18,609 nucleotides of DNA from a virus, in IMG/VR virus record IMGVR_UViG_3300045988_016379; one strand, 5' to 3'. Both the position numbers and the translations under genes were made by a program. The notes below the pieces were generated by a model that worked only from the letters and a program-made list of their open reading frames with translations, was not told the origin of the DNA and ran no database searches. This document shows, in pieces, positions 1 to 18,609 of the stretch (position 1 is the first letter of the stretch; each line of letters begins with the position of its first letter).

Positions 1-155
1 AAAAGGAGGGGAGGGGCCCCAGCAGCTAGCCTTTTTCCACAACCGCTCTGTTCTGTGTTTTGTATTCATGTTGCTTCCTGTGTTTTTGTTTCCGTCTCCT
101 GTGTGTTTATTTTTTTTCTTTGTTTTGCCGTTTTTTTTTTGAGGGTGTTTTGGGC

Positions 156-184
156 TTGTTGTTTGGTGGTGTGTGTGGTATGAT
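156..184 (+). promoter_or_regulatory. Candidate early promoter inside ITR-L (extended -10)
   Basis: -35-like TTGTTG (156-161), 17-nt spacer, then TGgTATGAT (TG 176-177, TATGAT 179-184). It lies about 35 nt upstream of the ATG at 220 and is followed by the SD-like AAGGAAGGG (200-208). The upstream region is T-rich. Confidence 0.55.
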
Positions 185-219
185 ATAAGTATCAACTTCA
201 AGGAAGGGAAAATAAAAAA

Positions 220-507
220 ATGATTATTTTGATTGATAACACTAAGGTCGTTGAGATTACTCTCAGGGAGTGGGACCGTGATAGTTTGGGCTATGGTCCT
301 GATTGGTCTAATGATTTCTTTGAGGTTGGTGCTTTGGAGCCCGTTGATGGCTCGGATGGGGCTTATTGGGTGCAGGATGTTGATTATTGTGTTGAGTATG
401 CTTGTGATATGATTGATGGTGTTGGTGATTTTGCGGAGTATGGGCTTCAGCCGTGTCAGTGTGTTGATGTGACTGTGCTTGACCGTGATGAGTTGGTTGA
501 TTTTTGA
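220..507 (+). CDS. Hypothetical very acidic early protein (95 aa), ITR-encoded copy 1
   Basis: ORF with SD AAGGAAGGG upstream. It has 16 Asp + 7 Glu against 1 Lys + 3 Arg. An identical copy sits at 18103-18390. Its T-ending codon usage differs from the structural genes. Confidence 0.8.
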   Translation: MIILIDNTKVVEITLREWDRDSLGYGPDWSNDFFEVGALEPVDGSDGAYWVQDVDYCVEYACDMIDGVGDFAEYGLQPCQCVDVTVLDRDELVDF

Positions 508-525
508 TGGGAAAGGAAAATAAAA

Positions 526-771
526 ATGTTTAAAGTTAAAGTCTATGTAACTGAGATTGAACAGGCTAATTTATATGAGGTCGATATTGACGGTTTTAAG
601 ACAGCTGTTGCGCCTTGTATGGGAGATGATGATAGTGCGGTCACGTTTAAATCAGCTCTTACTACAGTTCTTGAATATAAGTATGGTGATTGCGATTTTG
701 ATTATACGTGTTGTAGCGTAGAGGGCGTTTGCTACATGTATGATGTTGAGGTGATTGATGACGTTGAATGA
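526..771 (+). CDS. Hypothetical acidic early protein (81 aa)
   Basis: ORF preceded by GGAAAGGAAAATAAAAATG, nearly the same initiation region as gene 220. It is followed by an intrinsic terminator. Composition is acidic, about 18 D/E against 5 K. Confidence 0.7.
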   Translation: MFKVKVYVTEIEQANLYEVDIDGFKTAVAPCMGDDDSAVTFKSALTTVLEYKYGDCDFDYTCCSVEGVCYMYDVEVIDDVE

Positions 772-784
772 TAAATAATCCAAG

Positions 785-820
785 AAAAAAAGCCGGTGGG
801 GATTCCCTACCGGCTTTTTC
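785..820. terminator. Bidirectional intrinsic terminator between convergent units
   Basis: A7 tract, then a 10-bp stem GCCGGTGGGG / CCCTACCGGC (one G-U pair) with loop ATTC, then T5. It lies between the + strand stop at 771 and the - strand stop at 838. Confidence 0.85.
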
Positions 821-837
821 TTGTGTTGTGATTTGGT

Positions 838-1716
838 TTACTTTTCGGTTTTGTCTTTGGCGTTTACGGTGATTTCGAGTGCGTCAAGTTTGTTTTTGAC
901 GGCTTTTTCGACGGTGGCGGCGATGTCGGCGGGATTGGTGCCGAGTGCTTTGCTGAGTGCTTCGATGGCGGCGGCTTGTGCGGTGATGGTGGCTGTCATG
1001 TCGCGTACTCGTTTGTCGATGAAGCAGATGCGTGTGAAGATGTCGCCTTTGGTGCCGTCTTTGGTGCCGCCGTCATCTGTGCGGCTTAGGAGGGCGTAGA
1101 GGCGTGCGGTGTCTTTGTGTGCCCAGCTGAGGTGTATCCATGCTGGTTGGTTGTCTTTTCCGGGTGTTCCGCTGTCTCCGATTCCGTAGTCCCAGACTTC
1201 TTGTGGGGTTGTCATGTCTGCTCCTTTTTGTAGTATTTGGTTTGCTTTGTTGATGACGTAGTTGACGTCAAGTCCGTTGGGTGCTAGGTCGGGGCATCCG
1301 GCGTGGTCGCTGCCGGGGATTTCGCGGTGTAGCCAGATGTTGCCGTTGAGTCCGTCGTGCCATAGGTGGTTCCATCCGTATCGTTGGGCGATGTCGGCGC
1401 AGAGTGCGGCTGATGCGTCCATGCAGGCTTGTGTGCAGGGGATTCCTGGCATTCCACCCTCGTGTTCGACGCTGATGGTGCTGTTGTTGCTGGCGTAGTT
1501 GGCGTCTGACCATGCGCCGTTGACTTCGCCCACATATTGGTGGATGGTACCGTCGCCGCCTATCCCGTAGTGTGCTGATGCGCCGCCGGGTTTTTGGAAC
1601 ACGTTGTCTGTGCCGGCCAGATAGCCTACCATGATGTGCAGGGTGATGTGGTCTACGTGGTATCCGTATCGTCCGTTATTGTGGTTTGGAGAGCCTATCC
1701 ATACTATGCCGTCCAT
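838..1716 (-). CDS. Endolysin, N-acetylmuramoyl-L-alanine amidase (Amidase_2/PGRP type) with C-terminal domain of unknown type
   Basis: The N-terminal 160 aa show amidase_2 hallmarks: GSPNHNNGRYG...ITLHIM, SVEHEGG, HREIPGSDHAGCPD. SD AAGGAATAAACC precedes the ATG. It sits directly downstream of the holin. The C-terminal 120 aa are unassigned and may be a wall-binding or coiled-coil region. Confidence 0.9.
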   Translation of the reverse strand: MDGIVWIGSPNHNNGRYGYHVDHITLHIMVGYLAGTDNVFQKPGGASAHYGIGGDGTIHQYVGEVNGAWSDANYASNNSTISVEHEGGMPGIPCTQACMDASAALCADIAQRYGWNHLWHDGLNGNIWLHREIPGSDHAGCPDLAPNGLDVNYVINKANQILQKGADMTTPQEVWDYGIGDSGTPGKDNQPAWIHLSWAHKDTARLYALLSRTDDGGTKDGTKGDIFTRICFIDKRVRDMTATITAQAAAIEALSKALGTNPADIAATVEKAVKNKLDALEITVNAKDKTEK

Positions 1717-3258: not shown

Positions 3259-4524
3259 CTACTTGGTGATATACCGGCGTATCTCCCACCGAGTCGCCCC
3301 GCCCATCTCGCTTGACGCCGCGAACAGGTTCGGCCCGCTACCCGGACCCCCGTGGGATAATGTTTCATCCTTGCCGTCTGCGGTGAACATTTCTACATGG
3401 TCCCACGTTTGCGTGTATGCGCCCCAGTCCAGTAACAGCAGGTCGGCGGCGTGCGCCATGGCGATGGCCGCCGATATGGACGTGTCCGAACTGCCGCACA
3501 CGCGCATGCCCTTGCCTGCCATCTGCCCCGTCCATGTGCCCACATCGATTCCGAGCACGTCCTGATACGCACGCCAGCATACCGAACTGCAATCACCGTA
3601 CCCGCTCGAATCAGGGTCAAGCCGCCCCGCGCCCTGCGAATAGGCGTATTTGTTGATGCGTGACCGCAACCATTCCACGACACGCGCCGCATCCTTGTTG
3701 CTGCTGCCGGAGCTTGACCCGCCGCCTGTCTGACCGCCGCCCGGCTTGGTGCTCTCCGACGTGCGATACACCCATGTCTGCGCCGCGCCTTTGACGAAGA
3801 GGGCCGTACTGTCCCCGCTACGATAGACAAGATTATCGCCCTGCAACCGTATCCATGCGGTACTGCCGGGCTTCCCGTCAATGCCTGGTCGGTCGCCGCC
3901 CGGCGTATTCGATGGCTTGGAGGTCTGCCCGAAGTCAGGCGGTGCGCTCGTACCGTCCCACGCTTTCAGCAGGTTATATGCGGTGGTGTACCGATTGCGA
4001 TACTGTCCCAATACCCCGTCGGCCAGTATTGTGGTGTAAATCAGTTCCAGTGTGGCCGTCGCCGAGCATGACGCCAATACACGTTGCGCCTGCGCGGGAC
4101 TCTGATGGTAGGCGCACGCCCACATGATACGCTCTTTGACGTTGTTGGCAGGAAAACCGAAGTTCGTCATGGTGTTTTGGTATCCGCCCCAATCCGCCTC
4201 CCATTGCGCCTCCTGAAACGCATGATTCTGTGAGCGTTGCGCCCATGTCTTCCAAGCATTCCCCTCCGCTGTGGACAGATAGCGTGTTGTCCAATTGATG
4301 GAGTTTGACTGCACTTGCTGGGCTAATATTGGTGCCGCCGACGCGAACGCCTTCCAGCCGTCCTGGTCGGCGGTGCGCCCGCGTTCCAAGAGATTGCGGG
4401 CTCGTGTCCCATACCATTGCATCATACCCATGGTAATGGCGTCCACGTAATTGCAGGCACCCCAATCACAATTGGATTCCACCGTGCCGATAACGTACAT
4501 CGCGTAATATGCCGTATTGTCCAT
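3259..4524 (-). CDS. Virion-associated peptidoglycan hydrolase (phi29 gp13-like): N-terminal lysozyme-like domain + C-terminal NlpC/P60-type cysteine peptidase
   Basis: The N-terminus (GTVESNCDWG...GMMQWYG) resembles the phi29 gp13 lysozyme-like domain (MQSES...GLVQWT). A G/S/P-rich linker follows. The C-terminus has GYGDCSSVCWRAY...DHVEMF (Cys/His peptidase). The position matches gp13. The likely start is ATG 4524; the track start 4542 is a GTG inside a hairpin. Confidence 0.85.
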   Translation of the reverse strand: MDNTAYYAMYVIGTVESNCDWGACNYVDAITMGMMQWYGTRARNLLERGRTADQDGWKAFASAAPILAQQVQSNSINWTTRYLSTAEGNAWKTWAQRSQNHAFQEAQWEADWGGYQNTMTNFGFPANNVKERIMWACAYHQSPAQAQRVLASCSATATLELIYTTILADGVLGQYRNRYTTAYNLLKAWDGTSAPPDFGQTSKPSNTPGGDRPGIDGKPGSTAWIRLQGDNLVYRSGDSTALFVKGAAQTWVYRTSESTKPGGGQTGGGSSSGSSNKDAARVVEWLRSRINKYAYSQGAGRLDPDSSGYGDCSSVCWRAYQDVLGIDVGTWTGQMAGKGMRVCGSSDTSISAAIAMAHAADLLLLDWGAYTQTWDHVEMFTADGKDETLSHGGPGSGPNLFAASSEMGGATRWEIRRYITK

Positions 4525-4533
4525 GATAATAGT

Positions 4534-4562
4534 ATACCCCACGGCATGGTGCCGTGGGGTAT
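4534..4562 (-). terminator. Intercistronic hairpin between fibre gene and virion lysin gene
   Basis: ATACCCCACGGC / GCCGTGGGGTAT, a 12-bp stem with a 5-nt loop. It lies 17 nt after the TGA at 4579-4581 and ends 10 nt before the ATG at 4524. The tail ACUAUUAU is only weakly U-rich. Confidence 0.4.
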
Positions 4563-4578
4563 GACAATGGGTTTTCCG

Positions 4579-6021
4579 TCACCATGGGTAGCAGACGAAA
4601 CATCCATTATTGCCTGCGGGGGTGCCATGATATGTAATACGTGGGTTCACGGATGTGTCGGACTTCAAATCGGTCAGCAACCAGCCGCTCACCGCATTGC
4701 CGGAATTAGTCAGACCCGCGCCCCATGCTCGGAACTGGTTGGGGTTAGCCCCCTGATAGGCTCTGGCCCAGCCCGGAAGCCTGACACCGTTCTTCAAGTC
4801 ATCGCTTGTGGACGAGTCATCACCCCAGAACGTTGCCATAATCATGCCGCCGGAGGCTACGACATTGCAACGAACATGGTTGTTGGATGAGTTGACCGTG
4901 GCCGCCTCATAGCGTCCGGTATAAGCGCCCCGAATGGCGGACGCCATATAGGATGCAATGACCTTGGCTCCGCTTGCGTTGGGGTGGATGTTACCGCTCG
5001 GGAAGTTGGAATCATTGCCGATGTTCCACGTCCACGCCCAATCAACGTTTTCCACGCCGTTATTGGCTGCCGCCTCGGCGACGCCCGCCGCTTTCTGCCG
5101 TCCATACATATCCATACCGGCATTATGCCAGAGCATTGGTACGGAGATGATACGCGCCTTGGGGAACTTCGTGCGCGCATTGGAGAATGTCTGGTCTGCA
5201 TACGACTTCATTTCAGCGGCGGTGCCGATGTCGTTACGCCCGCCTCCGATGATGATAATCGCCACGTTGTCGTTGCCGATGCCCGCCGCATTGTAGGCTC
5301 TGTTGATTTGGTCGGTGAACTTCTTACCCGACACGTTGAATCCGGCACCCGTGACCGAGTAATTTTTCACCTGATATTCGTTGCCGATGATGTTGCGGAG
5401 CTGTGTGGGCCACTTGGTCGCGTCCGTGCTATCCGCGTTGACGGTGTCGGCCGAATTGGCGTAACTATCACCGATGCAGAGGCAGATGGGTAGTTGGTCT
5501 TGCGGCGTCGTTTCCAATGCCTGAATACGCTGGTTCAACTGCTGTGCAGTGCCGGAATATCCGCCCTGGTTGGTAAACGTCGTGTCGGCTTGGTTCTTGG
5601 TGTACACGTCGGAGGTGTTCGCCTTGGTGTTGACCGTGCTGGACAATGAGGATACGGTACTCCTGAGCGAGGTCAGTTCGGTATTCTCCGCCTTGCCGTC
5701 GATGGTGTTCATAAGCTGCTGCGCGGTTGATTCCGACGTGACGCCCAGCTTGCCAAAATAGCTATTCAGGCCGGCAATATCGCCCTCGTTGGCCTGCGCG
5801 AGGCTTTTTGCGGCCTCAGCCGCCGTCTTAGCCTCGCCGGCCGCCGTTGTCGCGTTGTTCGCCGCCGCCGTGGCCGTGGTGATGTTGGTCGCGTTGGCGT
5901 ACATCTGATTATCGATTTTCGTCATCGCGTCGGTAAAATCGCCACGCCATGACGGACGGTCGTTCGGACTGTCGCCAAACGTCGGCAGATTATAGTGTCC
6001 GGTATGCTGTGTGGTTGACAT
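4579..6021 (-). CDS. Tail fibre/appendage with C-terminal SGNH (GDSL) hydrolase domain
   Basis: It has an N-terminal anchor motif (HYNLPTFGDSPNDRPSWRGDF..MTKID), an Ala/Thr-rich coiled-coil region, then SGNH blocks: CIGDSYANS (block I), IIGGGRNDIG (block III) and SGNIHPNASGAKVIA (block V). SD AAGAGGAA lies 5 nt upstream of the ATG. Confidence 0.8.
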   Translation of the reverse strand: MSTTQHTGHYNLPTFGDSPNDRPSWRGDFTDAMTKIDNQMYANATNITTATAAANNATTAAGEAKTAAEAAKSLAQANEGDIAGLNSYFGKLGVTSESTAQQLMNTIDGKAENTELTSLRSTVSSLSSTVNTKANTSDVYTKNQADTTFTNQGGYSGTAQQLNQRIQALETTPQDQLPICLCIGDSYANSADTVNADSTDATKWPTQLRNIIGNEYQVKNYSVTGAGFNVSGKKFTDQINRAYNAAGIGNDNVAIIIIGGGRNDIGTAAEMKSYADQTFSNARTKFPKARIISVPMLWHNAGMDMYGRQKAAGVAEAAANNGVENVDWAWTWNIGNDSNFPSGNIHPNASGAKVIASYMASAIRGAYTGRYEAATVNSSNNHVRCNVVASGGMIMATFWGDDSSTSDDLKNGVRLPGWARAYQGANPNQFRAWGAGLTNSGNAVSGWLLTDLKSDTSVNPRITYHGTPAGNNGCFVCYPW

Positions 6022-6036
6022 CGCTGTTCCTCTTTT

Positions 6037-6450
6037 CTATTTGCGGGAAGTGCCGACGCGAACAATGCCGTTCACGTCCTTGTATAGGGAATCAAGTTCG
6101 GCCGCCGTTAACCCCAACGTGTTGGGTTGTGAGGCGGTTTTATCGACCTTGCCGTTAAGCCCCGAGGTGAGGGCTGAGGTGGTGGCGAAACCGCTCACGT
6201 TCGGGATATCGGTTTTCTTGGCGACAGTGTTCGCGACTCCCAGCGGGGAGGTCGTCGTGCCGTCGCCGGTGAGGTCGGCGGTGTGCGTCACGGTCTCAAG
6301 CCCGCCCTTGGAGGCCAAGTCGTCCGCGTTCTTCTTGAGCTGGGCGTCAATCTTCGACATGTCGCCGTTGTAGTCACCGAGCCATGTGGGCCGGTCAGTG
6401 CCAGCGAACTGTGAGAGATTATAGTTGGAGGTATGGTTGGTTGCGGTCAT
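6037..6450 (-). CDS. Short tail fibre/appendage paralog (137 aa) sharing the N-terminal anchor
   Basis: The N-terminus NYNLSQFAGTDRPTWLGDYNGDMSKIDAQ parallels the N-terminus of gene 4579-6021. SD AAAGGAG is upstream. The gene sits in the structural block. Confidence 0.7.
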   Translation of the reverse strand: MTATNHTSNYNLSQFAGTDRPTWLGDYNGDMSKIDAQLKKNADDLASKGGLETVTHTADLTGDGTTTSPLGVANTVAKKTDIPNVSGFATTSALTSGLNGKVDKTASQPNTLGLTAAELDSLYKDVNGIVRVGTSRK

Positions 6451-6455
6451 GATAG

Positions 6456-7091
6456 CTACTCCTTTTTATCAAAATTGTCTGCGGTCGGGTTGCGTTCCAC
6501 GTATCGTGCATCTGCCTCGGATTGCGTGATAAACGCCATGTCGGCAGGCGGATTCTCGGACATGGACTTTCCGTACGGGAATTGGGCGCGACCAGGAAAG
6601 TCGCCGGGCACGCAATTATCCACGGCGGTGGCGCGTAAGTCGTACTCGCGTGCGCCAAGCGTAAGCCCATCGTATTCCTGAGCGGTCAACCGCATGTTAT
6701 CGTAGTCACCCCAGAACAATCCGTGGTTACGCGAATTGTCATACATGCCGCCAAGCACATCCCCGAGCGGTTGTATGGTGCCGTACACTGGGGAGGTTGC
6801 CACACCCTGCTGTTCCATTTCGTGAATCAGGTCCAGCAGTTCCGCGCGTAATGCGGCCATATTCTTGTTGAGCTGGGTTACGGTATCCGCAAGCGCCTTG
6901 TCTACGGATGCCGCGAGGTCGCTGGTGGTTTCCTCCAGTTTGCTCAAATCGCATTGGAGGATGTCGAGATTGTGGCGTAGGCATTCAATCAACTGTAACG
7001 TGGTCAATCCGTCCCGATACGTGAACGGAACGGACGTGGGCACCCCGTCGAACAAGCGTTGTTGTGGAATCAGAGCGTTAATGGCAACCAT
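6456..7091 (-). CDS. Tail-associated structural protein (211 aa), function unassigned
   Basis: ORF in the structural block between the lower collar and the fibres, with a central coiled-coil-like segment. ATG 7091 is preferred (SD GGGAG 5 nt upstream) over ATG 7103. Confidence 0.6.
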   Translation of the reverse strand: MVAINALIPQQRLFDGVPTSVPFTYRDGLTTLQLIECLRHNLDILQCDLSKLEETTSDLAASVDKALADTVTQLNKNMAALRAELLDLIHEMEQQGVATSPVYGTIQPLGDVLGGMYDNSRNHGLFWGDYDNMRLTAQEYDGLTLGAREYDLRATAVDNCVPGDFPGRAQFPYGKSMSENPPADMAFITQSEADARYVERNPTADNFDKKE

Positions 7092-7093
7092 GA

Positions 7094-7888
7094 TTACTCC
7101 CATTCTTCATAGTTATGGCAGTCACTGAAAATTGTATCATAAGACCCCCACACCTGCATGAAACACGGTTCGAGGCTCCGCACAATTTCCATGTCCACAT
7201 TGATAATCGCCTGTCGGTACTCCTGTATCAGGCTCATGGCGGACTGGGAGCGGCCCGACGTGTGGGATTTGGTGCTCCCATCTGTAGCGTCGTGTTGCCA
7301 TTCCGTGCTGGATGTACTATGGGATTGAGAAGAGGTATCTTGCGTGCTATGGCTACTGCCGTCCGTATCCGCTTGCGCCTGATTGGCATGAGTCGCGTAT
7401 CGAGCAAAATCACCTTGCACTCCGGTTGCGGGCACTTCCGAGTCGTAAGACTGGGACTTGGTGCTACTTGAACTGGTGCCGTCCGAGGAGCTTCGGGTCG
7501 CACTATCCTGAGAGGCGCTGGTTTTGCCGCTGGACTGGGCTACAGTATTGGACAGGCTTTCACTGACCATTTCCATAGTGTTCAATGGGTCATATTTCAA
7601 CGCTAGCGTCCTGTATCGCTCATTAAAATATGGCATGATTTCCGCCATCGTCATCCCCAAGTAAAAAATGAACTGCTGGGCGGTTTCCTGTCCTATCTCT
7701 CGCAGCGCGTAATGGCGAACGATTTTCTCGTTCAGCTCGGCGCGGTGGTCTTCCTTATAAATCGGGTAATAGTCGGCGCTGAGATGCAGTTCGGCGTCCG
7801 TGTCGTATCCGAACGCAATGAGATTGCCAAGGGTTTCGGTGTACTCTCCCGGCGTTTCCATCGCGTAGGCGCTAAAATCCTGTGTCAT
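7094..7888 (-). CDS. Lower collar protein (phi29 gp11-like)
   Basis: The N-terminal region (YYPIYKEDHRAELNEKIVRHYALREIGQET...MAEIMPYFNERY) matches the conserved signature of lower collar proteins in phi29-like podophages. Its position directly after the connector gene also fits. SD GGAGGTG lies 7 nt upstream of the ATG, which overlaps the upstream TGA (TGATG). Confidence 0.8.
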   Translation of the reverse strand: MTQDFSAYAMETPGEYTETLGNLIAFGYDTDAELHLSADYYPIYKEDHRAELNEKIVRHYALREIGQETAQQFIFYLGMTMAEIMPYFNERYRTLALKYDPLNTMEMVSESLSNTVAQSSGKTSASQDSATRSSSDGTSSSSTKSQSYDSEVPATGVQGDFARYATHANQAQADTDGSSHSTQDTSSQSHSTSSTEWQHDATDGSTKSHTSGRSQSAMSLIQEYRQAIINVDMEIVRSLEPCFMQVWGSYDTIFSDCHNYEEWE

Positions 7889-11125: not shown

Positions 11126-11159
11126 AGAAGGGAGTGTTTCACGTGAAACACTCCCTTTT
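11126..11159. terminator. Palindromic hairpin with flanking A/T tracts (bidirectional terminator-like) upstream of tail knob gene
   Basis: GGGAGTGTTTCAC/GTGAAACACTCCC is a perfect 26-nt palindrome at 11130-11155. It is extended by AAGAA/TTTTA flanks. On the - strand it is followed by UUCUUUGUG and then the SD of the knob gene. Confidence 0.6.
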
Positions 11160-11187
11160 ATTATATCGCAGATTAGACGACCGTCAC
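11160..11187 (-). promoter_or_regulatory. Candidate sigma70-type promoter reading into tail knob gene
   Basis: On the - strand: GTGACG (-35, 4/6), 16-nt spacer, TATAAT (-10, 6/6; 11165->11160). The predicted start would fall at or inside the 11130-11155 hairpin. Confidence 0.35.
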
Positions 11188-11286
11188 AGTGCCCTGACAG
11201 CTGACACCGAACAGCGCGGCCGTCAGCTTGGTGGAACCGGCGGCCACTCCAGTGACTAGGCCGGTATTGTCCACTAGAGGTTCGCG
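11173..11286 (-). pseudogene. Orphan remnant of a Big_2 (bacterial Ig-like) domain C-terminus, no start codon
   Basis: The frame is open for 37 codons between TGA (11287-11289) and TAA (11173-11175): REPLVDNTGLVTGVAAGSTKLTAALFGVSCQGTVTVV*. It parallels the capsid C-terminus SESGVVSGVKAGSSDITATLFGVSGKASMTVKA*. There is no ATG or SD, and it is out of frame with the capsid gene. Confidence 0.6.
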
Positions 11287-11320
11287 TCATCAATCATCAC
11301 CCAACCTCCGGTATGACAAA

Positions 11321-11353
11321 GCCCGGAGCGCTCACGTGGCTTGCGCTCCGGGC
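11321..11353 (-). terminator. GC-rich hairpin downstream of capsid gene (terminator-like)
   Basis: Stem GCCCGGAGCGC / GCGCTCCGGGC (11 bp) with an 11-nt loop. On the - strand it is followed by UUUGUCAU. Confidence 0.5.
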
Positions 11354-11376
11354 CTTGTCCTGTATCACACCGTGAG

Positions 11377-11404
11377 GGGAGGGTAGCCAGTCGGCTACCC
11401 TCCC
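11377..11404 (-). other. 12-bp perfect hairpin immediately after capsid stop codon
   Basis: GGGAGGGTAGCC-AGTC-GGCTACCCTCCC, 6 nt from the TGA at 11411-11413. No U-tract follows it. It is flanked by the short direct repeat TGTATCAC (11361-11368 and 11407-11414). Confidence 0.5.
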
Positions 11405-11410
11405 ATTGTA

Positions 11411-13164: not shown

Positions 13165-13506
13165 TTAATCTTCATACAGGTCGTTGAATGTACTGTATGT
13201 GCCGTTATAGTCATCGTCGGTCATTTCAGCCGATTCCGTTGTCGCGTCATCGTCGGAGCCATCGTTGAGCACGTGGTCTGCTGCCGCGTCGCGCATCGCC
13301 TCAATGGTCTCGGACAGTTCCGCCACGGTCGCCTCCAGGGCGCTGATACGGTTGGCCATGTCGGCGTTCTTGTCATCGCCAGCGTCTTCCGGTTCGCCGT
13401 CATCCTGCGTTTCAGGCTCCGGGTTCGGCGTATTGTCGGCGTCGGTCGCGTCCTGTTCGGTGTCGGGCGTGGTGTCCGACTTGTCGTCGGTTTCGACATC
13501 GTCCAT
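13165..13506 (-). CDS. Scaffolding protein (phi29 gp7 analog), highly acidic
   Basis: 113 aa directly upstream of the capsid gene, with a D/E/T-rich disordered N-terminus and a helical segment (NRISALEATVAELSETIEAMRDAAA). ATG 13506 with SD AAGGGG 8 nt upstream is preferred over the track's GTG at 13515. Confidence 0.7.
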   Translation of the reverse strand: MDDVETDDKSDTTPDTEQDATDADNTPNPEPETQDDGEPEDAGDDKNADMANRISALEATVAELSETIEAMRDAAADHVLNDGSDDDATTESAEMTDDDYNGTYSTFNDLYED

Positions 13507-13520
13507 AATAATCACCCCTT

Positions 13521-13696: not shown

Positions 13697-15157
13697 TTAT
13701 AACACAAAAGCATGTCCATCGTCGTTGAAATGCTGCGACCCCGGTAGGAACTCATCGTAGGGGATGGGTGCGGCGCGATGCACGCCGCTCAACCGCATCA
13801 CCGTCTCGCCGCCCGCCTCTATGCCACAATATTTGCGATTGCCGAGGATACGCAGCTTGTCGTAATTGTGGTCGTTTTTCCACGCTCCCAGTTTCCTGCC
13901 ATCCGGTTCGATGCCAATGGGCGCATCCAATCCCTCCAATATCATGCCATCGGTGTCGGCGTAAAGCACTCGGTCGGCGTTCGCGTTCATGGCGCGTGAT
14001 AGTATCCGTCTGCCATAGGCGTTGACGTAGGCGGCGGTCGGCAGCCATGCCATACTGTTGGCCGACCCGGGCTTGTCCACGATAAAATCCACACCACCGT
14101 CCGCAGAGGGTTTCGGATGCAGCATGGGGCGGTAGAGTGAGGCCCCGAATTTTCCCGCCAGCGAGTTCAGCAGCAATTTCGCCATTTGCCTGCGTTCTCC
14201 GGTTGCGGTTTGTTTCACGCGAAACCATTTGTCCACGTATGTGTAATATAGCCCGTGTGATTTGCGGAACTTCCATCCGCCGATATGCTCCCACACATGC
14301 ACGTCATAGTTTTCCGTGAGCGTCTCCCAATCCACATCCGTGACGGGCATGGTTACGACGCCTAGCGTGCTATCCAAACGTTCGCCCTCATACCCCCATA
14401 CGGGGAGGATATTGGTTAACGTCGCCGTTCCACCCGGTTTCAACCGCGCGTCGAACGCGATGATATCAATATGCAGCGGATAATCATTATCATGATGATA
14501 TTCGCCGTCATACCACATGGAGGCCCCCACCGGCATGGGGGCGTCGCGCATGATGCTCGGGTAAAGGCTGTTCACATCCCAGCTTCGACAATTCTTGTAT
14601 TCTCCGGGCTTGCTGTACACTATCGCCCCATAGTAGGCCGGCCGCATCCGGTGATAATCCGCCTTATCCAATGGCGGAAAATGACGTTTGAATCCGGCGT
14701 AATCCCCGTCGATATAGTCGGTCATCGCCATGGACGCTATGGTAGTGCCCCTGAGATTCAGGGCCTCGCATTCCCGTGCGATGTTCCACGTGGTTTCCAA
14801 GTCATCCATGCCGCCGAACGTTTCACGTGAAACATTCAGGCCATCGTCTCGAGTAACATTGCGGACATCCAGAAAATCCACGGTGATGCCGCCCATGCGC
14901 ACGCGAAAACTGTAGAAATGGCCACGGATATTGAACGTGCCCCACACGCCGTCCTTGACTGGGTTCGATTGCAATGGCAGTCGTTTCAGCAGCTCGGCGG
15001 CTATGGGCTTGATGTCCTGCCATCCGTGGGCGCACCATACGCGCGTGTGATGTTCGAGCATAGTGAGGCGGATGACGGCGTTCACCGTCAATGGTTCCAC
15101 ACCGTCATCCGTGCATAGCATTGCGCCGTCTGTTGCCGCCATTCGACGCTCTCGCAT
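13697..15157 (-). CDS. Family B DNA polymerase, protein-primed type (phi29 gp2-like), compact, exonuclease motifs apparently degenerate
   Basis: Motif A WDVNSLYPSIM, YPLHI (start of the TPR1 region), motif B KLLLNSLAGKFG, motif C LYADTDGM, and a KxY-like NRKY. The likely start is ATG 15157 (SD AAAAGGA 7 nt upstream, just after the upstream TAA). The track start 15199 overlaps the upstream gene. Confidence 0.92.
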   Translation of the reverse strand: MRERRMAATDGAMLCTDDGVEPLTVNAVIRLTMLEHHTRVWCAHGWQDIKPIAAELLKRLPLQSNPVKDGVWGTFNIRGHFYSFRVRMGGITVDFLDVRNVTRDDGLNVSRETFGGMDDLETTWNIARECEALNLRGTTIASMAMTDYIDGDYAGFKRHFPPLDKADYHRMRPAYYGAIVYSKPGEYKNCRSWDVNSLYPSIMRDAPMPVGASMWYDGEYHHDNDYPLHIDIIAFDARLKPGGTATLTNILPVWGYEGERLDSTLGVVTMPVTDVDWETLTENYDVHVWEHIGGWKFRKSHGLYYTYVDKWFRVKQTATGERRQMAKLLLNSLAGKFGASLYRPMLHPKPSADGGVDFIVDKPGSANSMAWLPTAAYVNAYGRRILSRAMNANADRVLYADTDGMILEGLDAPIGIEPDGRKLGAWKNDHNYDKLRILGNRKYCGIEAGGETVMRLSGVHRAAPIPYDEFLPGSQHFNDDGHAFVL

Positions 15158-15171
15158 GATTCCATCCTTTT

Positions 15172-16116
15172 TTAGTGTCGTGCCGCGTTGGTCATCCATT
15201 CATCAAGTCGTGTCTCTACATCTCCTGCATCCGCTTTTGTCTCCCATTTATGCGTTTTATCATTATACCATGCGGCCTCCCGTACCACGGCGCTAAAGTT
15301 CGTGTTGTTTATCAGCCATCGTTTTTGACGGTTCAACAAAGCGTAGAATTTTTGGGAGATGCTGGAGTCGAATGCCTCTAATTGCTGTTCGACTCTATCA
15401 AAATCCGCAACCCCCTCGTTCTTTGGAATCTGTCTAGTTCCCGCATGTAGCGGAGCTCGCCCCGTAAGCCCGGCGTACTCGAGTATCTCCCGCTCAAGTT
15501 TTTTACGCCCCCCTTCTCGTATCATCATGCGCGCGTGGCTTATGCCACGCTCTGTACCAAACACGTTCGCACGGTTGCGTGTGAGTTCGTCACGCGCCGA
15601 ACCGCCGACCGTATGAGTACCCAACACGTCGAACGGTGACTCTCCCGCGCGTTCCATTTCACGTATTTCGGCCACGGTGTAGCGGGCCATGCTCAATGCC
15701 TCGAATTGTTGGTCGCGTTTGATTTTCCGCCGCGCTTCGATACGGCGGCGCTGCTGTTGCCTCAATGTTTTCCGACGTTTTGACGGGGCGGCGCTGATTT
15801 CTGCATCGGTTATCAACGGTCGCGCCGCCAGCTCCCTATCGAGTTTCGTGACATGCACGTCGGGGACAACCTGATACGGCTCGTTATCCCGTGACCTTAA
15901 AGCCTGCTGCCGTTCCCCAAACTCCTGCCCGATGCGGCGTGCGACCTGCTCGAGTTGTTGAGCGCTGAGCTTCCCCAAAAACGTTTCGGTGATTTGCTTG
16001 GGGAGGTGTCCGGTGCTATAGTCTCTGACCGCCTGCTCTCGGCGTACCTGTGCCGACCTGGTGGCGGCATTACGTTTCAGGCTGCTAGCGCGTCGATTGT
16101 TTTTACGTTTTGCCAC
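15172..16116 (-). CDS. Candidate terminal protein (phi29 gp3 analog)
   Basis: The call rests on position: it is immediately upstream of the protein-primed polymerase, as in phi29. It is Arg/Lys-rich, especially at the N-terminus (AKRKNNRRASSLKRNAATR). GTG 16116 is preferred because of the strong SD AAGGAGAG 5-7 nt upstream. The track start 16194 would translate through a terminator hairpin. I recognised no sequence similarity to phi29 TP by eye. Confidence 0.5.
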   Translation of the reverse strand: MAKRKNNRRASSLKRNAATRSAQVRREQAVRDYSTGHLPKQITETFLGKLSAQQLEQVARRIGQEFGERQQALRSRDNEPYQVVPDVHVTKLDRELAARPLITDAEISAAPSKRRKTLRQQQRRRIEARRKIKRDQQFEALSMARYTVAEIREMERAGESPFDVLGTHTVGGSARDELTRNRANVFGTERGISHARMMIREGGRKKLEREILEYAGLTGRAPLHAGTRQIPKNEGVADFDRVEQQLEAFDSSISQKFYALLNRQKRWLINNTNFSAVVREAAWYNDKTHKWETKADAGDVETRLDEWMTNAARH

Positions 16117-16132
16117 AGCCTCTCTCCTTGTG

Positions 16133-16178
16133 AGTATGAAAACACCCCTCGCAGCAAGGATGGAAGCAGCAAGGGGTG
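16133..16178 (-). terminator. Intrinsic terminator-like hairpin upstream of candidate TP gene
   Basis: On the - strand: CACCCCUUGCUGC / GCUGCGAGGGGUG (13 positions with one U-U mismatch and one G-U pair), a 10-nt loop, then UUUUCAUACU, ending about 8 nt before the SD of the TP gene. Confidence 0.55.
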
Positions 16179-16240
16179 AATTTGGCGGCAACATCCCTAT
16201 AGGGACATTACCATGCTATCATATGGTGTGGACAAATAGT

Positions 16241-16678
16241 CTATTTGCGGCCTTTTTCCGACACCAATTCGAGGTCAAAGAATTTATAGCCACGGCGACT
16301 CTTCTTTTCCACCACCTTGAGAACGACAGGCGCGGCCCACTTATCCGGCGTACCAAAAATGGCGAAGAGATTACCGAAAGCGTGCGCCAGCGTGGGAGAG
16401 GCGGCGGCAAAGTCGCCCTCTTCTGCGTGGATAACGACTCGAGTGGATGAATTGATTTCACCAGTCTCCTGATTGGCGACCTCGATGGCCTGCGCCAGCA
16501 CGTTAGTGACATGCAACGGCTCATTAAGGTGGTCATCTACCTTATCGGAGGTTTGCATGGCGTTGTACAACGCCATCTTGCCGTCCATAGTAGTGGTGTC
16601 GAAGAAATGGGACACGGCGTTAGTGCCGTTCGCGGAAAAGTTATTGCCGTTCTTTACGGTCAGTTCGTTGTCAGCCAT
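16241..16678 (-). CDS. Early protein (145 aa), possible ssDNA-binding protein by position
   Basis: Good SD (AAGGAAGG 8 nt upstream). It sits just upstream of the TP-polymerase pair, where phi29 encodes gp5/gp6. The functional call rests on position only. Confidence 0.3.
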   Translation of the reverse strand: MADNELTVKNGNNFSANGTNAVSHFFDTTTMDGKMALYNAMQTSDKVDDHLNEPLHVTNVLAQAIEVANQETGEINSSTRVVIHAEEGDFAAASPTLAHAFGNLFAIFGTPDKWAAPVVLKVVEKKSRRGYKFFDLELVSEKGRK

Positions 16679-16709: not shown

Positions 16710-17027
16710 TTATTTTTCCTCGGAGATGATATCATCTTCGACCACGTTGCCGCCAACCGGCCCCGCATAATCAATAATGGTATCATCACCAAATTCGCAA
16801 TTAGCCCAATAGATTGCCTCATCCATGCGCGTTGCCTGCTGATGATATTCAGCGGACATAGGTAGCATGTCCTTGTTAATCTTACGGGCTTTCTTCATAG
16901 CCATGTCAGCCGTGCGGCACGCGCCATCCACGACCACCTCGGTGTCAACAAGTTCTCCGTTTTCGCTGCGCGTAACGCCACGCACTATACTATAATGCTT
17001 GGCTCGCTTAATGTATGCCATAATCAT
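16710..17027 (-). CDS. Hypothetical early protein (105 aa)
   Basis: ORF co-oriented with and tightly packed in the early block. AAGGCGG lies upstream. No recognisable motif. Confidence 0.6.
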   Translation of the reverse strand: MIMAYIKRAKHYSIVRGVTRSENGELVDTEVVVDGACRTADMAMKKARKINKDMLPMSAEYHQQATRMDEAIYWANCEFGDDTIIDYAGPVGGNVVEDDIISEEK

Positions 17028-17589: not shown

Positions 17590-17841
17590 CTAACACCTAT
17601 CAATCAACGGAGTATCAGCCAACGCCATCGCGTCAACCAGCATATGAGCCACCTGCGCATAATCGCACGCATCAAACACCATAGTCGACCAATCCAAATG
17701 ACGACTGCCACGAGAATAAAATCGCACCGATACCGCATAACGCAACTCATACACCCTCCGGTGAGGACAATACACCAACCGCACATCACCATCCTTAAAC
17801 GAAGACGGAAAAACAGCAACAACCTTATCATTCACCATCAT
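17590..17841 (-). CDS. Hypothetical early protein (83 aa)
   Basis: ATGATG at 17841/17838 is preceded by SD GAGAGGA 6 nt upstream and overlaps the end of the upstream gene by 14 nt. The extra N-terminal residues in the track ORF are Cys/Arg/Leu-rich and unlikely to be real. Confidence 0.55.
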   Translation of the reverse strand: MMVNDKVVAVFPSSFKDGDVRLVYCPHRRVYELRYAVSVRFYSRGSRHLDWSTMVFDACDYAQVAHMLVDAMALADTPLIDRC

Positions 17842-18103
17842 CAAACATCCTCTCAAACGGCAAACGCACCTCAACAACACCATTCAAAACCCCGTTTGAA
17901 TCAAACGAAGAGTGGGCAAAACCAACATACACATCAAGACCGGAAAACGCACGACGGACAACGTCAAGCACACCATCCAACGCCTCCTTAAACGTACCAG
18001 CCGGATACGGGCCCATTACCTCCACATGCTCAGGCGTGAGCTCAAATACCGTAAAATCATCAGGCGTAACAGTAAAACACCACACGTCAAACCCCTTTCC
18101 CAT
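17828..18103 (-). CDS. Hypothetical acidic early protein (91 aa); start codon lies inside ITR-R
   Basis: ATG at 18103 overlaps the TGA of the ITR gene (TGATG). The first ~3.3 codons (ATGGGAAAGG) are ITR sequence. Composition is acidic. Confidence 0.65.
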   Translation of the reverse strand: MGKGFDVWCFTVTPDDFTVFELTPEHVEVMGPYPAGTFKEALDGVLDVVRRAFSGLDVYVGFAHSSFDSNGVLNGVVEVRLPFERMFDDGE

Positions 18104-18390
18104 CAAAAATCAACCAACTCATCACGGTCAAGCACAGTCACATCAACACACTGACACGGCTGAAGCCCATACTCCGCAAAATCACCAACACCATCAATCA
18201 TATCACAAGCATACTCAACACAATAATCAACATCCTGCACCCAATAAGCCCCATCCGAGCCATCAACGGGCTCCAAAGCACCAACCTCAAAGAAATCATT
18301 AGACCAATCAGGACCATAGCCCAAACTATCACGGTCCCACTCCCTGAGAGTAATCTCAACGACCTTAGTGTTATCAATCAAAATAATCAT
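18103..18390 (-). CDS. Hypothetical very acidic early protein (95 aa), ITR-encoded copy 2
   Basis: The translation is identical to 220-507. It lies wholly inside ITR-R with the same promoter and SD. Confidence 0.8.
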   Translation of the reverse strand: MIILIDNTKVVEITLREWDRDSLGYGPDWSNDFFEVGALEPVDGSDGAYWVQDVDYCVEYACDMIDGVGDFAEYGLQPCQCVDVTVLDRDELVDF

Positions 18391-18425
18391 TTTTTTATTT
18401 TCCCTTCCTTGAAGTTGATACTTAT

Positions 18426-18454
18426 ATCATACCACACACACCACCAAACAACAA
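18426..18454 (-). promoter_or_regulatory. Candidate early promoter inside ITR-R (mirror of 156-184)
   Basis: This is the reverse-complement copy of TTGTTG-17 nt-TGgTATGAT. It points inward into the long - strand gene array. Confidence 0.55.
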
Positions 18455-18609
18455 GCCCAAAACACCCTCAAAAAAAAAACGGCAAAACAAAGAAAAAAAA
18501 TAAACACACAGGAGACGGAAACAAAAACACAGGAAGCAACATGAATACAAAACACAGAACAGAGCGGTTGTGGAAAAAGGCTAGCTGCTGGGGCCCCTCC
18601 CCTCCTTTT

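What the first reader, a model, noticed from the sequence alone, without database searches (positions are those of the whole stretch)
220..507. Duplicated, extremely acidic 95-aa gene with its own promoter inside both ITRs: candidate DNA-mimic or anti-defence early protein
The ORF has 23 D/E against 4 K/R in 95 aa. It is present in two identical inverted copies (220-507 and 18103-18390), each behind an extended -10 promoter. It is therefore the first gene transcribed from whichever end enters the cell first, and it is present at double dosage. Small, very acidic, first-expressed phage proteins are the classic profile of DNA mimics, such as T7 Ocr against type I restriction enzymes and phi29 p56 against uracil-DNA glycosylase. 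The neighbouring genes 526-771 and 17828-18103 are also small and acidic.
Basis: inference. Interest (0 to 1): 0.7.

Follow-up and report, generated by a model that had tools for sequence, protein, structure and literature searches.

The report
Acidic accessory gene duplicated in phage ITRs
A small, very acidic protein gene with its own conserved promoter sits inside both inverted ends of a phi29-like gut (probably Bifidobacterium) phage; it belongs to a large, undescribed, fast-evolving family shared by phages, prophages and a conjugative megaplasmid, which makes it a good but unproven candidate for an early anti-defence inhibitor.

Summary
The window is a complete 18.6-kb phi29-like podovirus genome with exact 516-bp inverted terminal repeats (ITRs). 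Each ITR carries a promoter, a Shine-Dalgarno-like tract and a 95-aa ORF with 23 D/E against 4 K/R.

The ORF is a real gene. It has about 20 close homologues, and a profile search finds 328 clusters at 50% identity. Its dN/dS is 0.4, and AlphaFold2 models it with pLDDT 88.

The promoter is conserved even in cultured Bifidobacterium phages whose polymerases are only about 35% identical. Those phages place different small genes, mostly acidic, behind it. The ends are therefore variable accessory-gene slots.

The family is absent from Pfam, PHROGs, NCBIfam and PDB. It shows no sequence or fold similarity to Ocr, ArdA, p56 or Ugi.

Members also occur in three other settings:
- early operons of siphophages;
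- prophage ends;
- B. breve megaplasmid pMP7017, next to a pentapeptide-repeat protein and an LPD28 protein.

Some members are fused to DUF3849, a domain that lies two genes from ArdA in one conjugative-transposon-like region.

The gene's amino-acid sequence changes 4-5 times faster than the replication genes. An early-acting acidic inhibitor of a host DNA-binding or defence protein is the best reading (about 0.45). Function and target are untested.

The parts
1..516 (+). Left inverted terminal repeat (ITR). Positions 1-175 form a T/G-rich, poorly conserved leader.
   Evidence: The arm is 100% complementary to 18094-18609. It appears as a stand-alone 516-bp contig in other assemblies. The leader RNA shows no unusual structure (z = +1.1).
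18094..18609 (-). Right inverted terminal repeat (ITR)
156..184 (+). Left promoter: -35 TTGTTG (156-161), 17-nt spacer, extended -10 TGgTATGAT (176-184).
   Evidence: Motif match. Key positions are invariant in 10 relatives and conserved in cultured Bifidobacterium phages BD811P2 and BP1. The promoter fits the bifidobacterial consensus and its most conserved positions as given in PMC10832533.
18426..18454 (-). Right copy of the same promoter. It heads the long leftward operon.
201..208 (+). Shine-Dalgarno-like tract AGGAAGGG upstream of the ATG at 220. The mirror copy is at 18402-18409.
   Evidence: Read from the sequence. A purine-rich tract is present in all relatives.
220..507 (+). Left copy of the 95-aa acidic protein gene (called acid95 in this report)
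   Evidence: Sequence and composition. Homologues. dN/dS. Structure model.
18103..18390 (-). Right copy of acid95. It is the first cistron of the early operon.
526..771 (+). 81-aa acidic accessory gene, the second cistron of the left-end unit. Its ribosome-binding site (GGAAAGGAAAA) spans the ITR boundary.
   Evidence: It is present in only some relatives and absent from the cultured phages.
787..819 (.). Bidirectional intrinsic terminator: a 15-bp stem flanked by an A-run and a T-run. It closes both the left-end unit and the convergent late operon.
17828..18103 (-). 91-aa early gene. Its ATG overlaps the acid95 stop codon (TGATG), and its first 10 nt lie inside the ITR.
   Evidence: It has a homologue in cultured phage BP1 at 37% identity.

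Best explanation
The 95-aa ORF (called acid95 here) is a real accessory gene carried in a conserved terminal expression slot of a phi29-like, protein-primed podovirus. The host is most likely Bifidobacterium.

Each genome end holds an inward-facing promoter of the host sigma-70 type. In this lineage the ITR has expanded from promoter only, as in cultured relatives, to promoter plus the whole first gene. Both ends therefore express the same protein. The left copy is part of a two-gene unit closed by a strong terminator. The right copy is the first cistron of the long operon that continues into the replication genes.

The product is a compact alpha/beta protein with net charge -19. It has about 19 positions where the acidic residue is conserved, and its fold matches nothing in PDB.

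Most likely mechanism (inferred, not shown): the host RNA polymerase makes the protein immediately after DNA entry. It then binds stoichiometrically to the basic, nucleic-acid-binding surface of a host protein and blocks it. The target would be a restriction, other defence or DNA-repair factor. In function this would resemble a DNA-mimic anti-defence protein, although acid95 is unrelated to the known ones.
For: Shown:
- Phage type: protein-primed PolB, phi29-type SSB, connector, Gp16 ATPase and gp9 tail knob. Gene order matches Bifidobacterium phages BD811P2 and BP1.
- The gene is real. It has 21 close homologues, and a profile search finds 328 clusters at 50% identity with E<=1e-3. Median dN/dS is 0.36. 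AlphaFold2 gives pLDDT 88.2 and pTM 0.77, and the model resembles independent models of remote homologues at TM 0.67-0.74.
- Acidity is a family trait. Mean net charge is -15.4 +/- 4.2 over 266 members. In 214 aligned members, 19 of 94 positions are at least 60% D/E.
- The promoter is conserved far beyond the level of protein conservation. It fits the bifidobacterial consensus (PMC10832533).
- The terminal slot varies in content. BD811P2 places different acidic genes behind the same promoter at its two ends (61 aa with 15 D/E and 1 K/R; 105 aa with 25 D/E and 6 K/R). BP1 places an acidic 81-aa gene at one end and a non-acidic 91-aa gene (14 D/E, 12 K/R) at the other. acid95 is absent from both phages.
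- It evolves fast. dN is 0.19-0.27 and omega 0.38-0.46, against dN 0.04-0.07 and omega 0.05-0.11 for SSB, Pol and the 105-aa gene (16710-17027) in the same genome pairs.
- acid95 is the terminal gene at the early end in 7 related loci and at the late end in 8. These include lineages whose structural proteins are only 45-50% identical.
- It is horizontally mobile. It is found inside 30-68 kb siphophage contigs, in an early operon after a Cro-like HTH, at prophage ends next to integrase or lysis genes, and on B. breve and B. longum megaplasmids.
- Association with conflict-system genes. On pMP7017 it lies in an operon with an LPD28 protein, a metallophosphoesterase and a pentapeptide-repeat protein. 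Two family members are fused to DUF3849. In a Vescimonas conjugative-transposon-like region, a DUF3849 protein lies two genes from ArdA.
Against: - No experiment or expression data exist for any family member. Every source calls it a hypothetical protein.
- It has no sequence or fold similarity to any known DNA mimic or anti-defence protein.
- The surface charge geometry could not be examined.
- Many proteins in this phage are acidic, and the 116-aa protein upstream of the capsid gene is even more so. Acidity alone is therefore weak evidence.
- Several nearly invariant Asp and Gly residues (D6, D32, D53, D63, G69, D70) could equally indicate metal binding or a structural role.
- In temperate phages the gene sits in the classic moron slot, which also fits a function that benefits the lysogen.
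- The association evidence rests on a few loci.
Confidence: 0.45

Rival explanations
1. acid95 is a host-takeover inhibitor of a housekeeping DNA-transaction protein rather than of a dedicated defence system. Candidate targets are uracil-DNA glycosylase (as for phi29 p56), an AddAB/RecBCD-type nuclease, a nucleoid protein or RNA polymerase. The role would be to protect phage replication intermediates or linear DNA ends.
For: The gene sits in the early position of a protein-primed phage with exposed linear ends. Acidity is conserved at specific positions. phi29 p56 sets a precedent (established knowledge). In siphophages the gene lies directly upstream of a DnaN-like clamp gene in the replication module.
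Against: It has no similarity to p56 or Ugi. The family also occurs in prophages and in a conjugative megaplasmid with quite different replication modes. The high dN/dS fits an arms race better than a conserved housekeeping target.
Confidence: 0.2
2. acid95 is a moron-type gene that benefits the carrier cell or element. It would give superinfection exclusion or inhibit competing phages and plasmids, and would be expressed constitutively from its own promoter. Its ITR location in the podovirus would then be incidental.
For: In temperate phages it lies at prophage ends, beside the integrase or just after the holin-endolysin cassette. It has its own promoter and the lowest GC content in the genome except the 81-aa gene (44% against about 54% overall). 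It is carried on a megaplasmid.
Against: No integrase or repressor was found in this genome. The family scans left about half the ORFs unmatched, and the 61-aa and 576-aa ORFs were not scanned. The phage is therefore probably obligately lytic, so lysogen benefit would not apply to it. There the gene occupies the first position of the early operon, and the terminal position is conserved across the clade. In siphophages it lies in the early lytic operon after a Cro-like HTH.
Confidence: 0.15
3. acid95 is a small metal-binding, enzymatic or chaperone-like protein, and its conserved Asp and Gly residues form a cation or active site. The acidity would then be a by-product rather than a mimicry surface.
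For: Several residues are invariant or nearly so: D6, D28, D32, D53, D63, G69, D70 and the G-x-G-D-[FY] motif. The fold has no PDB match.
Against: There are no conserved His, Lys or Arg catalytic candidates apart from K9 and R89. The protein is small and stands alone. dN/dS is high. C-terminal fusions are diverse, which is typical of an adaptor or binding module.
Confidence: 0.1
4. acid95 is a replication or ITR-specific accessory factor, for example a functional analogue of phi29 p6, p1, p16.7 or p17. It would be tied to the termini because it acts there.
For: It is encoded in the ITR of a protein-primed genome. phi29 early proteins act at the genome ends (established knowledge; PMC4974454 was listed but not read).
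Against: The family is widespread in elements that do not use protein priming: terminase-bearing siphophages, integrase prophages and a theta- or RepB-type megaplasmid. Cultured relatives with the same replication module lack it. A net charge of -19 is incompatible with direct DNA binding.
Confidence: 0.05

Closest known systems
phi29 p56 and PBS2 Ugi (small acidic early phage inhibitors of uracil-DNA glycosylase that act as DNA mimics)
   Same: Like them, acid95 is a small, strongly acidic, cytoplasmic protein. p56 is likewise an early gene of a phi29-like, protein-primed phage.
   Different: No sequence, profile or fold similarity was found. acid95 is larger than p56, at 95 aa against 56 aa. 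Its family is also found in temperate siphophages and a megaplasmid. Its target is unknown.
T7 Ocr (gp0.3) and ArdA (anti-restriction DNA mimics)
   Same: All are first-expressed genes next to the entering DNA end, with a high density of negative charge. ArdA is also carried by conjugative elements, and a fusion partner of this family (DUF3849) lies two genes from ArdA in one conjugative-transposon-like region.
   Different: Neither Pfam nor PDB gives a match. The predicted topology has five beta-strands and three or four short helices. From established knowledge, Ocr is all-helical and ArdA is a three-domain protein. Dimerisation and DNA-like geometry were not tested.
Terminal early promoters of phi29-like phages, and the ITRs of Cp-1-type and Bifidobacterium picoviruses (BD811P2, BP1)
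   Same: acid95's phage shares the protein-primed linear genome, an inward-facing host-type promoter at the ends and the same gene order. The promoter sequence itself is shared with BD811P2 and BP1.
   Different: In this phage the ITR is 516 bp and contains a complete promoter-gene cassette. In the BD811P2 and BP1 records the repeat stops at or just after the start codon, and different genes follow at the two ends.
Poxvirus and linear-plasmid ITRs that carry duplicated accessory or host-interaction genes
   Same: In both cases an accessory gene is duplicated because it lies inside an ITR, and the two copies evolve in concert.
   Different: The replicons are unrelated and differ greatly in size. 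The comparison rests on general knowledge only.
Anti-defence genes clustered in the leading region of conjugative plasmids, and solo domains related to polyvalent proteins (Iyer et al. 2017, PMC5512222)
   Same: The logic is the same: counter-defence genes sit on the DNA that enters first. A family member on pMP7017 lies two genes downstream of an LPD28-domain gene in the same operon and directly upstream of a pentapeptide-repeat gene.
   Different: It was not established whether the pMP7017 locus lies in the leading region. The acid95 domain itself was not traced in the paper's domain catalogue. That paper's text was searched only for other terms, such as DUF3849, LPD28 and 'acidic'.

Membership tests
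phi29-like (protein-primed) podoviruses | Protein-primed family-B DNA polymerase, phi29-type SSB, connector, Gp16 packaging ATPase and gp9 tail knob on a linear genome of about 18-20 kb with ITRs | tested here: met
   Pfam matches: PF03175, PF17427, PF05352, PF05894, PF20934. ITR. Nearest cultured relatives are Bifidobacterium phages at 33-37% polymerase identity.
phi29-like (protein-primed) podoviruses | Packaging RNA (pRNA) | tested here: inconclusive
   No Rfam match at E<=1. A conserved, highly structured 259-nt intergenic element at 11152-11410(-) is an untested candidate.
Ocr (T7 gp0.3) | Sequence membership of the Ocr family, or the Ocr fold | tested here: not met
   No Pfam or PHROG hit at E<=0.1. 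The PDB phmmer and profile searches returned nothing relevant. The best Foldseek match in PDB had E=2.4 and TM<0.35, and no DNA mimic appeared among the 50 of 71 matches shown.
ArdA | ArdA domain or its three-domain elongated fold | tested here: not met
p56 / Ugi / SAUGI UDG inhibitors | Sequence or fold similarity to a known UDG inhibitor | tested here: not met
DNA-mimic proteins (a functional class, not a homology family) | High density of net negative charge | tested here: met
   Net charge is -19 over 95 aa, with pI 4.05. The family mean is -15.4.
DNA-mimic proteins (a functional class, not a homology family) | Exposed carboxylates spaced like the phosphates of B-DNA | not testable with these tools
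   The model coordinates are not exposed, so only secondary structure and pLDDT were available.
DNA-mimic proteins (a functional class, not a homology family) | Binds and inhibits a DNA-binding protein | not testable with these tools
   This needs pull-downs or biochemistry.
Any curated protein family (Pfam, PHROGs, NCBIfam) | A profile match for acid95 or diverse family members | tested here: not met
   No hits for the window protein, for 10 diverse members in PHROGs, or for 33 members in Pfam, where no family was matched by more than one member.
Early, host-RNA-polymerase-transcribed terminal gene | A sigma-70/sigma-A-type promoter directly upstream, conserved among relatives | tested here: met
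   The consensus is taken from PMC10832533. Timing of expression itself was not tested.

The most novel reading that the evidence does not exclude
acid95 founds a new structural class of DNA-mimic or anti-defence proteins. The class would circulate among podoviruses, siphoviruses, prophages and conjugative megaplasmids of gut Bifidobacterium, Collinsella and Clostridia. In this phage clade the cassette was captured into the ITR, so it is expressed at once whichever genome end enters first. This would be a phage counterpart of the plasmid leading-region strategy.
Probability: 0.3. Interest if true: 0.75.

Novelty: new variant of a known kind. Interest (0 to 1): 0.55.

Why it matters
Bifidobacteria are hard to transform and hard to infect, largely because of restriction-modification and other defence systems. 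A small, portable inhibitor from their own phages would be biologically informative and could serve as a tool to improve DNA delivery into these and other gut commensals.

The family is large (328 clusters at 50% identity), has a confident predicted fold with no PDB counterpart, and is absent from every curated library searched. Characterising one member would therefore annotate hundreds of currently unannotated genes in gut viromes.

The architecture also shows how ITRs of protein-primed phages can grow to take in expression cassettes. The promoter-only ITRs of the cultured relatives and the promoter-plus-gene ITR seen here look like stages of that process.

Tried and rejected
- Whole-genome megablast against the phage collection found nothing. 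tblastn of acid95 against the same collection also found nothing.
- Pfam, PHROGs and NCBIfam gave no hit for acid95, its neighbours or diverse family members.
- The PDB sequence and profile searches and Foldseek against PDB gave no meaningful match. Membership of Ocr, ArdA, p56 and Ugi was therefore rejected.
- The canonical two-hexamer promoter scan found no promoter in the ITR. The promoter was recovered only through the extended -10 pattern and conservation among relatives.
- A literature search for DUF3849 and PF12960 returned nothing. The polyvalent-protein paper does not mention DUF3849.
- The last homologue search, using the DUF3849 half of P0131 to list co-occurring domains, returned only the query itself, so that search was wasted.
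- The metagenome scan with the single protein added only two loci.
- The supplement of the pMP7017 transcriptome paper does not list the homologue's coordinates.
- 'Not a gene' was rejected on conservation, dN/dS below 1 and a confident fold.
- 'ITR is an assembly artefact' was rejected because independent assemblies contain stand-alone 516-bp contigs.
- 'Replication-specific factor' was rejected because of the family's distribution.
- The idea that the ITR leader encodes a structured RNA or pRNA was rejected (z = +1.1; no Rfam hit).

Full report
**What the window is**

The 18,609-bp window is a complete linear genome of a phi29-like podovirus. On the minus strand, read from the right end, it encodes:
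- small early genes;
- a phi29-type SSB (16241-16678);
- a basic 340-aa protein in the terminal-protein position (15172-16194);
- a protein-primed family-B DNA polymerase (13697-15199);
- the major capsid gene, whose homologues in relatives carry the Phi29_MCP domain;
- a gp9-like tail knob, a connector, a Gp16 packaging ATPase, a holin and an amidase.

The nearest cultured phages are the Bifidobacterium podoviruses BD811P1-3, BP1 and BadAargau2. Polymerase identity to them is 33-37%, and gene order matches BD811P2 and BP1. The exact 95-aa protein occurs in human-gut metagenome assemblies. Bifidobacterium is therefore the most likely host. That assignment is an inference from relatives, the shared promoter and the family's distribution.

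**Checking the observation**

- The two arms 1-516 and 18094-18609 are perfectly complementary, and the first mismatch is at position 517.
- The ORF 220-507 is identical to 18103-18390 and encodes 95 aa with 23 D/E, 4 K/R and pI 4.05.
- The ITR is not an assembly artefact. Three independent assemblies contain it as a separate contig of 516, 517 and 549 bp, each ending exactly at window position 516. This is what a de Bruijn graph produces for a true inverted terminal repeat.
- A 97%-identical IMG/VR genome has the gene at both ends, with the same inner boundary. Both of its copies carry the same five coding substitutions relative to the window. The copies therefore evolve in concert.
- The outermost ~20 nt differ between assemblies. 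One relative starts with a Nextera adapter fused at about window position 21. The exact termini are therefore uncertain.

**The promoter**

- The strict two-hexamer scan reports no promoter in the ITR.
- TGgTATGAT at 176-184 is an exact extended -10. The pattern occurs 13 times in the genome against 2.3 expected. TTGTTG lies 17 nt upstream.
- In an alignment of ten related ends, T157 and G158 of the -35 and T179, A180, T181, A183 and T184 of the -10 are invariant, while the rest of the leader is scrambled.
- The same block (GGCGTGTTGT...TGTGGTATGAT...TCAACTTCAAGGAAGG...ATG) is present at the ends of cultured phages BD811P2 and BP1. Their proteins are only 33-56% identical to those of this phage.
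- The conserved positions and the 17-nt spacer are those reported as most conserved in active bifidobacterial promoters (PMC10832533).
- I take this as strong comparative evidence for a functional host-type promoter. It is not direct evidence of expression.

**Transcription units**

- Left end: promoter, acid95, an 81-aa acidic gene (526-771), then a 15-bp-stem bidirectional terminator at 787-819. The terminator also closes the convergent late operon.
- Right end: the same promoter and acid95 head the long leftward operon. The next gene's ATG overlaps the acid95 stop codon (TGATG), and its first 10 nt lie inside the ITR. On the left, those same bases form the ribosome-binding site of the 81-aa gene.

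**The gene is real and belongs to a large undescribed family**

- Twenty-one homologues at 45-87% identity were found. The longest of their contigs cluster at about 18 kb.
- A profile search of 1.84 billion cluster representatives found 328 clusters at E<=1e-3 and 104 at E<=1e-10. The domain is at the N-terminus in almost every case, and protein lengths run from 44 to 347 aa.
- Median pairwise dN/dS is 0.36.
- AlphaFold2 gives pLDDT 88.2 and pTM 0.77, with five strands and three or four helices.
- Foldseek against PDB finds nothing. The best hit has E=2.4 and TM below 0.35.
- Foldseek against BFVD finds three uncharacterised gut-virome proteins at 26-32% identity and TM 0.67-0.74.
- Pfam, PHROGs, NCBIfam and the PDB sequence and profile searches give no hit for the protein or for diverse members.
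- Every source calls it a hypothetical protein.

**Acidity is a conserved trait**

Mean net charge of the first 95 residues is -15.4 +/- 4.2 over 266 members. In 214 aligned members, 19 of 94 positions are at least 60% D/E, and about nine are at least 90%.

**Where the gene sits**

- In the podovirus clade it is the terminal gene at the early end in 7 loci and at the late end in 8. These include lineages whose structural proteins are only 45-50% identical to the window's. A more distant 16.4-kb podovirus also has it at a terminus.
- BD811P2 and BP1 lack the family altogether. BD811P2 places different acidic genes behind the same ITR promoter at its two ends: 61 aa with 15 D/E and 1 K/R, and 105 aa with 25 D/E and 6 K/R. 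BP1 places an acidic 81-aa gene at one end and a non-acidic 91-aa gene at the other. Their ITRs stop at the start codon.
- The ends are therefore variable accessory slots driven by a fixed promoter. In the window's lineage the ITR has expanded to include the first gene.
- In the same genome pairs, acid95 has dN 0.19-0.27 and omega 0.38-0.46. SSB, polymerase and the 105-aa gene (16710-17027) have dN 0.04-0.07 and omega 0.05-0.11.
- At 44% GC, acid95 has the second-lowest GC in the genome, after the 81-aa gene at 38%.

**Outside podoviruses, family members occur in:**
- 30-68 kb viral contigs, either stand-alone or as the N-terminal half of a ~190-aa protein;
- a siphophage early operon, after a Cro-like HTH and upstream of a DnaN-like clamp;
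- a B. adolescentis prophage, between the integrases and the lysis module;
- Collinsella, B. olomucense, Oscillospiraceae and Ruminococcus genomes, next to an integrase or just after holin-endolysin;
- the conjugative B. breve megaplasmid pMP7017 and related B. longum plasmids. There it lies in an operon with an LPD28-domain protein, a metallophosphoesterase and a pentapeptide-repeat protein.

Two members are fused to DUF3849. In a Vescimonas conjugative-transposon-like region, a DUF3849 protein lies two genes from ArdA.

**Interpretation**

The distribution rules out a role specific to protein-primed replication or to ITRs. Five features point to a protein that acts soon after DNA entry against a variable host factor:
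- a conserved host-type promoter at the DNA ends;
- a slot whose gene content varies between phages;
- fast amino-acid evolution;
- horizontal spread across element types;
- neighbours and fusion partners drawn from conflict systems.

The position-specific acidity suggests that it works by occupying a basic, nucleic-acid-binding surface. I give this about 0.45.

It is not a member of the Ocr, ArdA, p56 or Ugi families. Whether it works like them is untested.

Rivals are:
- an inhibitor of a housekeeping DNA-transaction protein (0.2);
- a moron that benefits the carrier cell or element (0.15);
- a metal-binding or enzymatic role for the invariant Asp and Gly residues (0.1);
- a replication accessory factor (0.05).

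The two copies sit in different transcription units, so both ends do deliver the cassette.

**Novelty and score**

Small acidic early phage proteins are a known kind. Three things are new here:
- a large uncatalogued family whose confident predicted fold has no match in PDB;
- a phi29-like ITR that contains a complete promoter-gene cassette;
- a promoter conserved across distantly related Bifidobacterium phages that drives interchangeable cargo.

I rate it a new variant of a known kind, with interest 0.55.

Noticed in passing
window 11152-11410 (- strand): The 259-nt gap between the capsid and tail-knob genes folds at -134 kcal/mol (z = -7.5). It contains perfect hairpins of 12 and 17 bp and ends in a TATAAT promoter-like site. 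Both sequence and structure are conserved in relatives (L001, L059, L060), but the cultured phages BD811P2 and BP1 have only ~70 nt at this position. No Rfam family matches. It could be a terminator or attenuator followed by a late promoter, or a pRNA-like packaging RNA.
   Followed up: partly
L067 (BD811P2) 1-55 and 17773-17827; L068 (BP1) 380-527 and 19316-19463: Cultured Bifidobacterium phages carry the same terminal promoter inside their ITRs. Their repeats stop at the start codon, and different small genes, mostly acidic, follow at each end. The BD811P2 record begins inside the promoter, so its ends are probably truncated. The BP1 record has 379 extra nt outside its left arm.
   Followed up: partly
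window 13165-13515 (-): A 116-aa protein with 39 D/E and 4 K/R lies directly upstream of the major capsid gene. It is the most acidic protein in the genome and is probably the scaffolding protein. Acidity alone is therefore not diagnostic in this phage.
   Followed up: no
window 505-525 and 18085-18105: The inner ITR boundary (516) falls 10 nt into the right-hand gene 17828-18103 (ATGGGAAAGG). On the left, the same bases act as the ribosome-binding site of gene 526-771 and open an 8-codon mini-ORF.
   Followed up: yes
window 1-22; L004 1-22; L062, L063: The outermost ~20 nt (AAAAGGAGGGGAGGGGCCCC) differ between assemblies. The IMG/VR relative starts with a Nextera adapter fused at about position 21, and L062 has 33 extra nt. 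The true termini, and hence the 5'-AAAA end, are not secure.
   Followed up: partly
L039 116-401; L065 207-266: In one relative the acid95 copy is frameshifted, either a pseudogene or a sequencing error. Another contig carries an inverted fragment of the gene upstream of the full copy, probably a hairpin-type mis-assembly at the ITR.
   Followed up: no
L071 (pMP7017) 3436-7300: The megaplasmid operon reads LPD28 protein, hypothetical protein, metallophosphoesterase, acid95-family protein (137 aa), then a pentapeptide-repeat + DUF5758 protein. A metallophosphoesterase gene also lies about 1.3 kb downstream of the family member, on the opposite strand, in the ~50-kb phage L053-L055.
   Followed up: partly
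L009 10665-12440; L069 8668-10710: The siphophages carrying the 190-aa form encode an unusually long (591-680 aa) DnaN-like sliding-clamp homologue directly downstream. It has a Pro/Glu-rich linker and an extra C-terminal domain.
   Followed up: no
window 1-1000: The left kilobase shows strong strand asymmetry (GC skew +0.39, AT skew -0.31). The ITR leader is almost purely T and G on the outward-to-inward strand.
   Followed up: no
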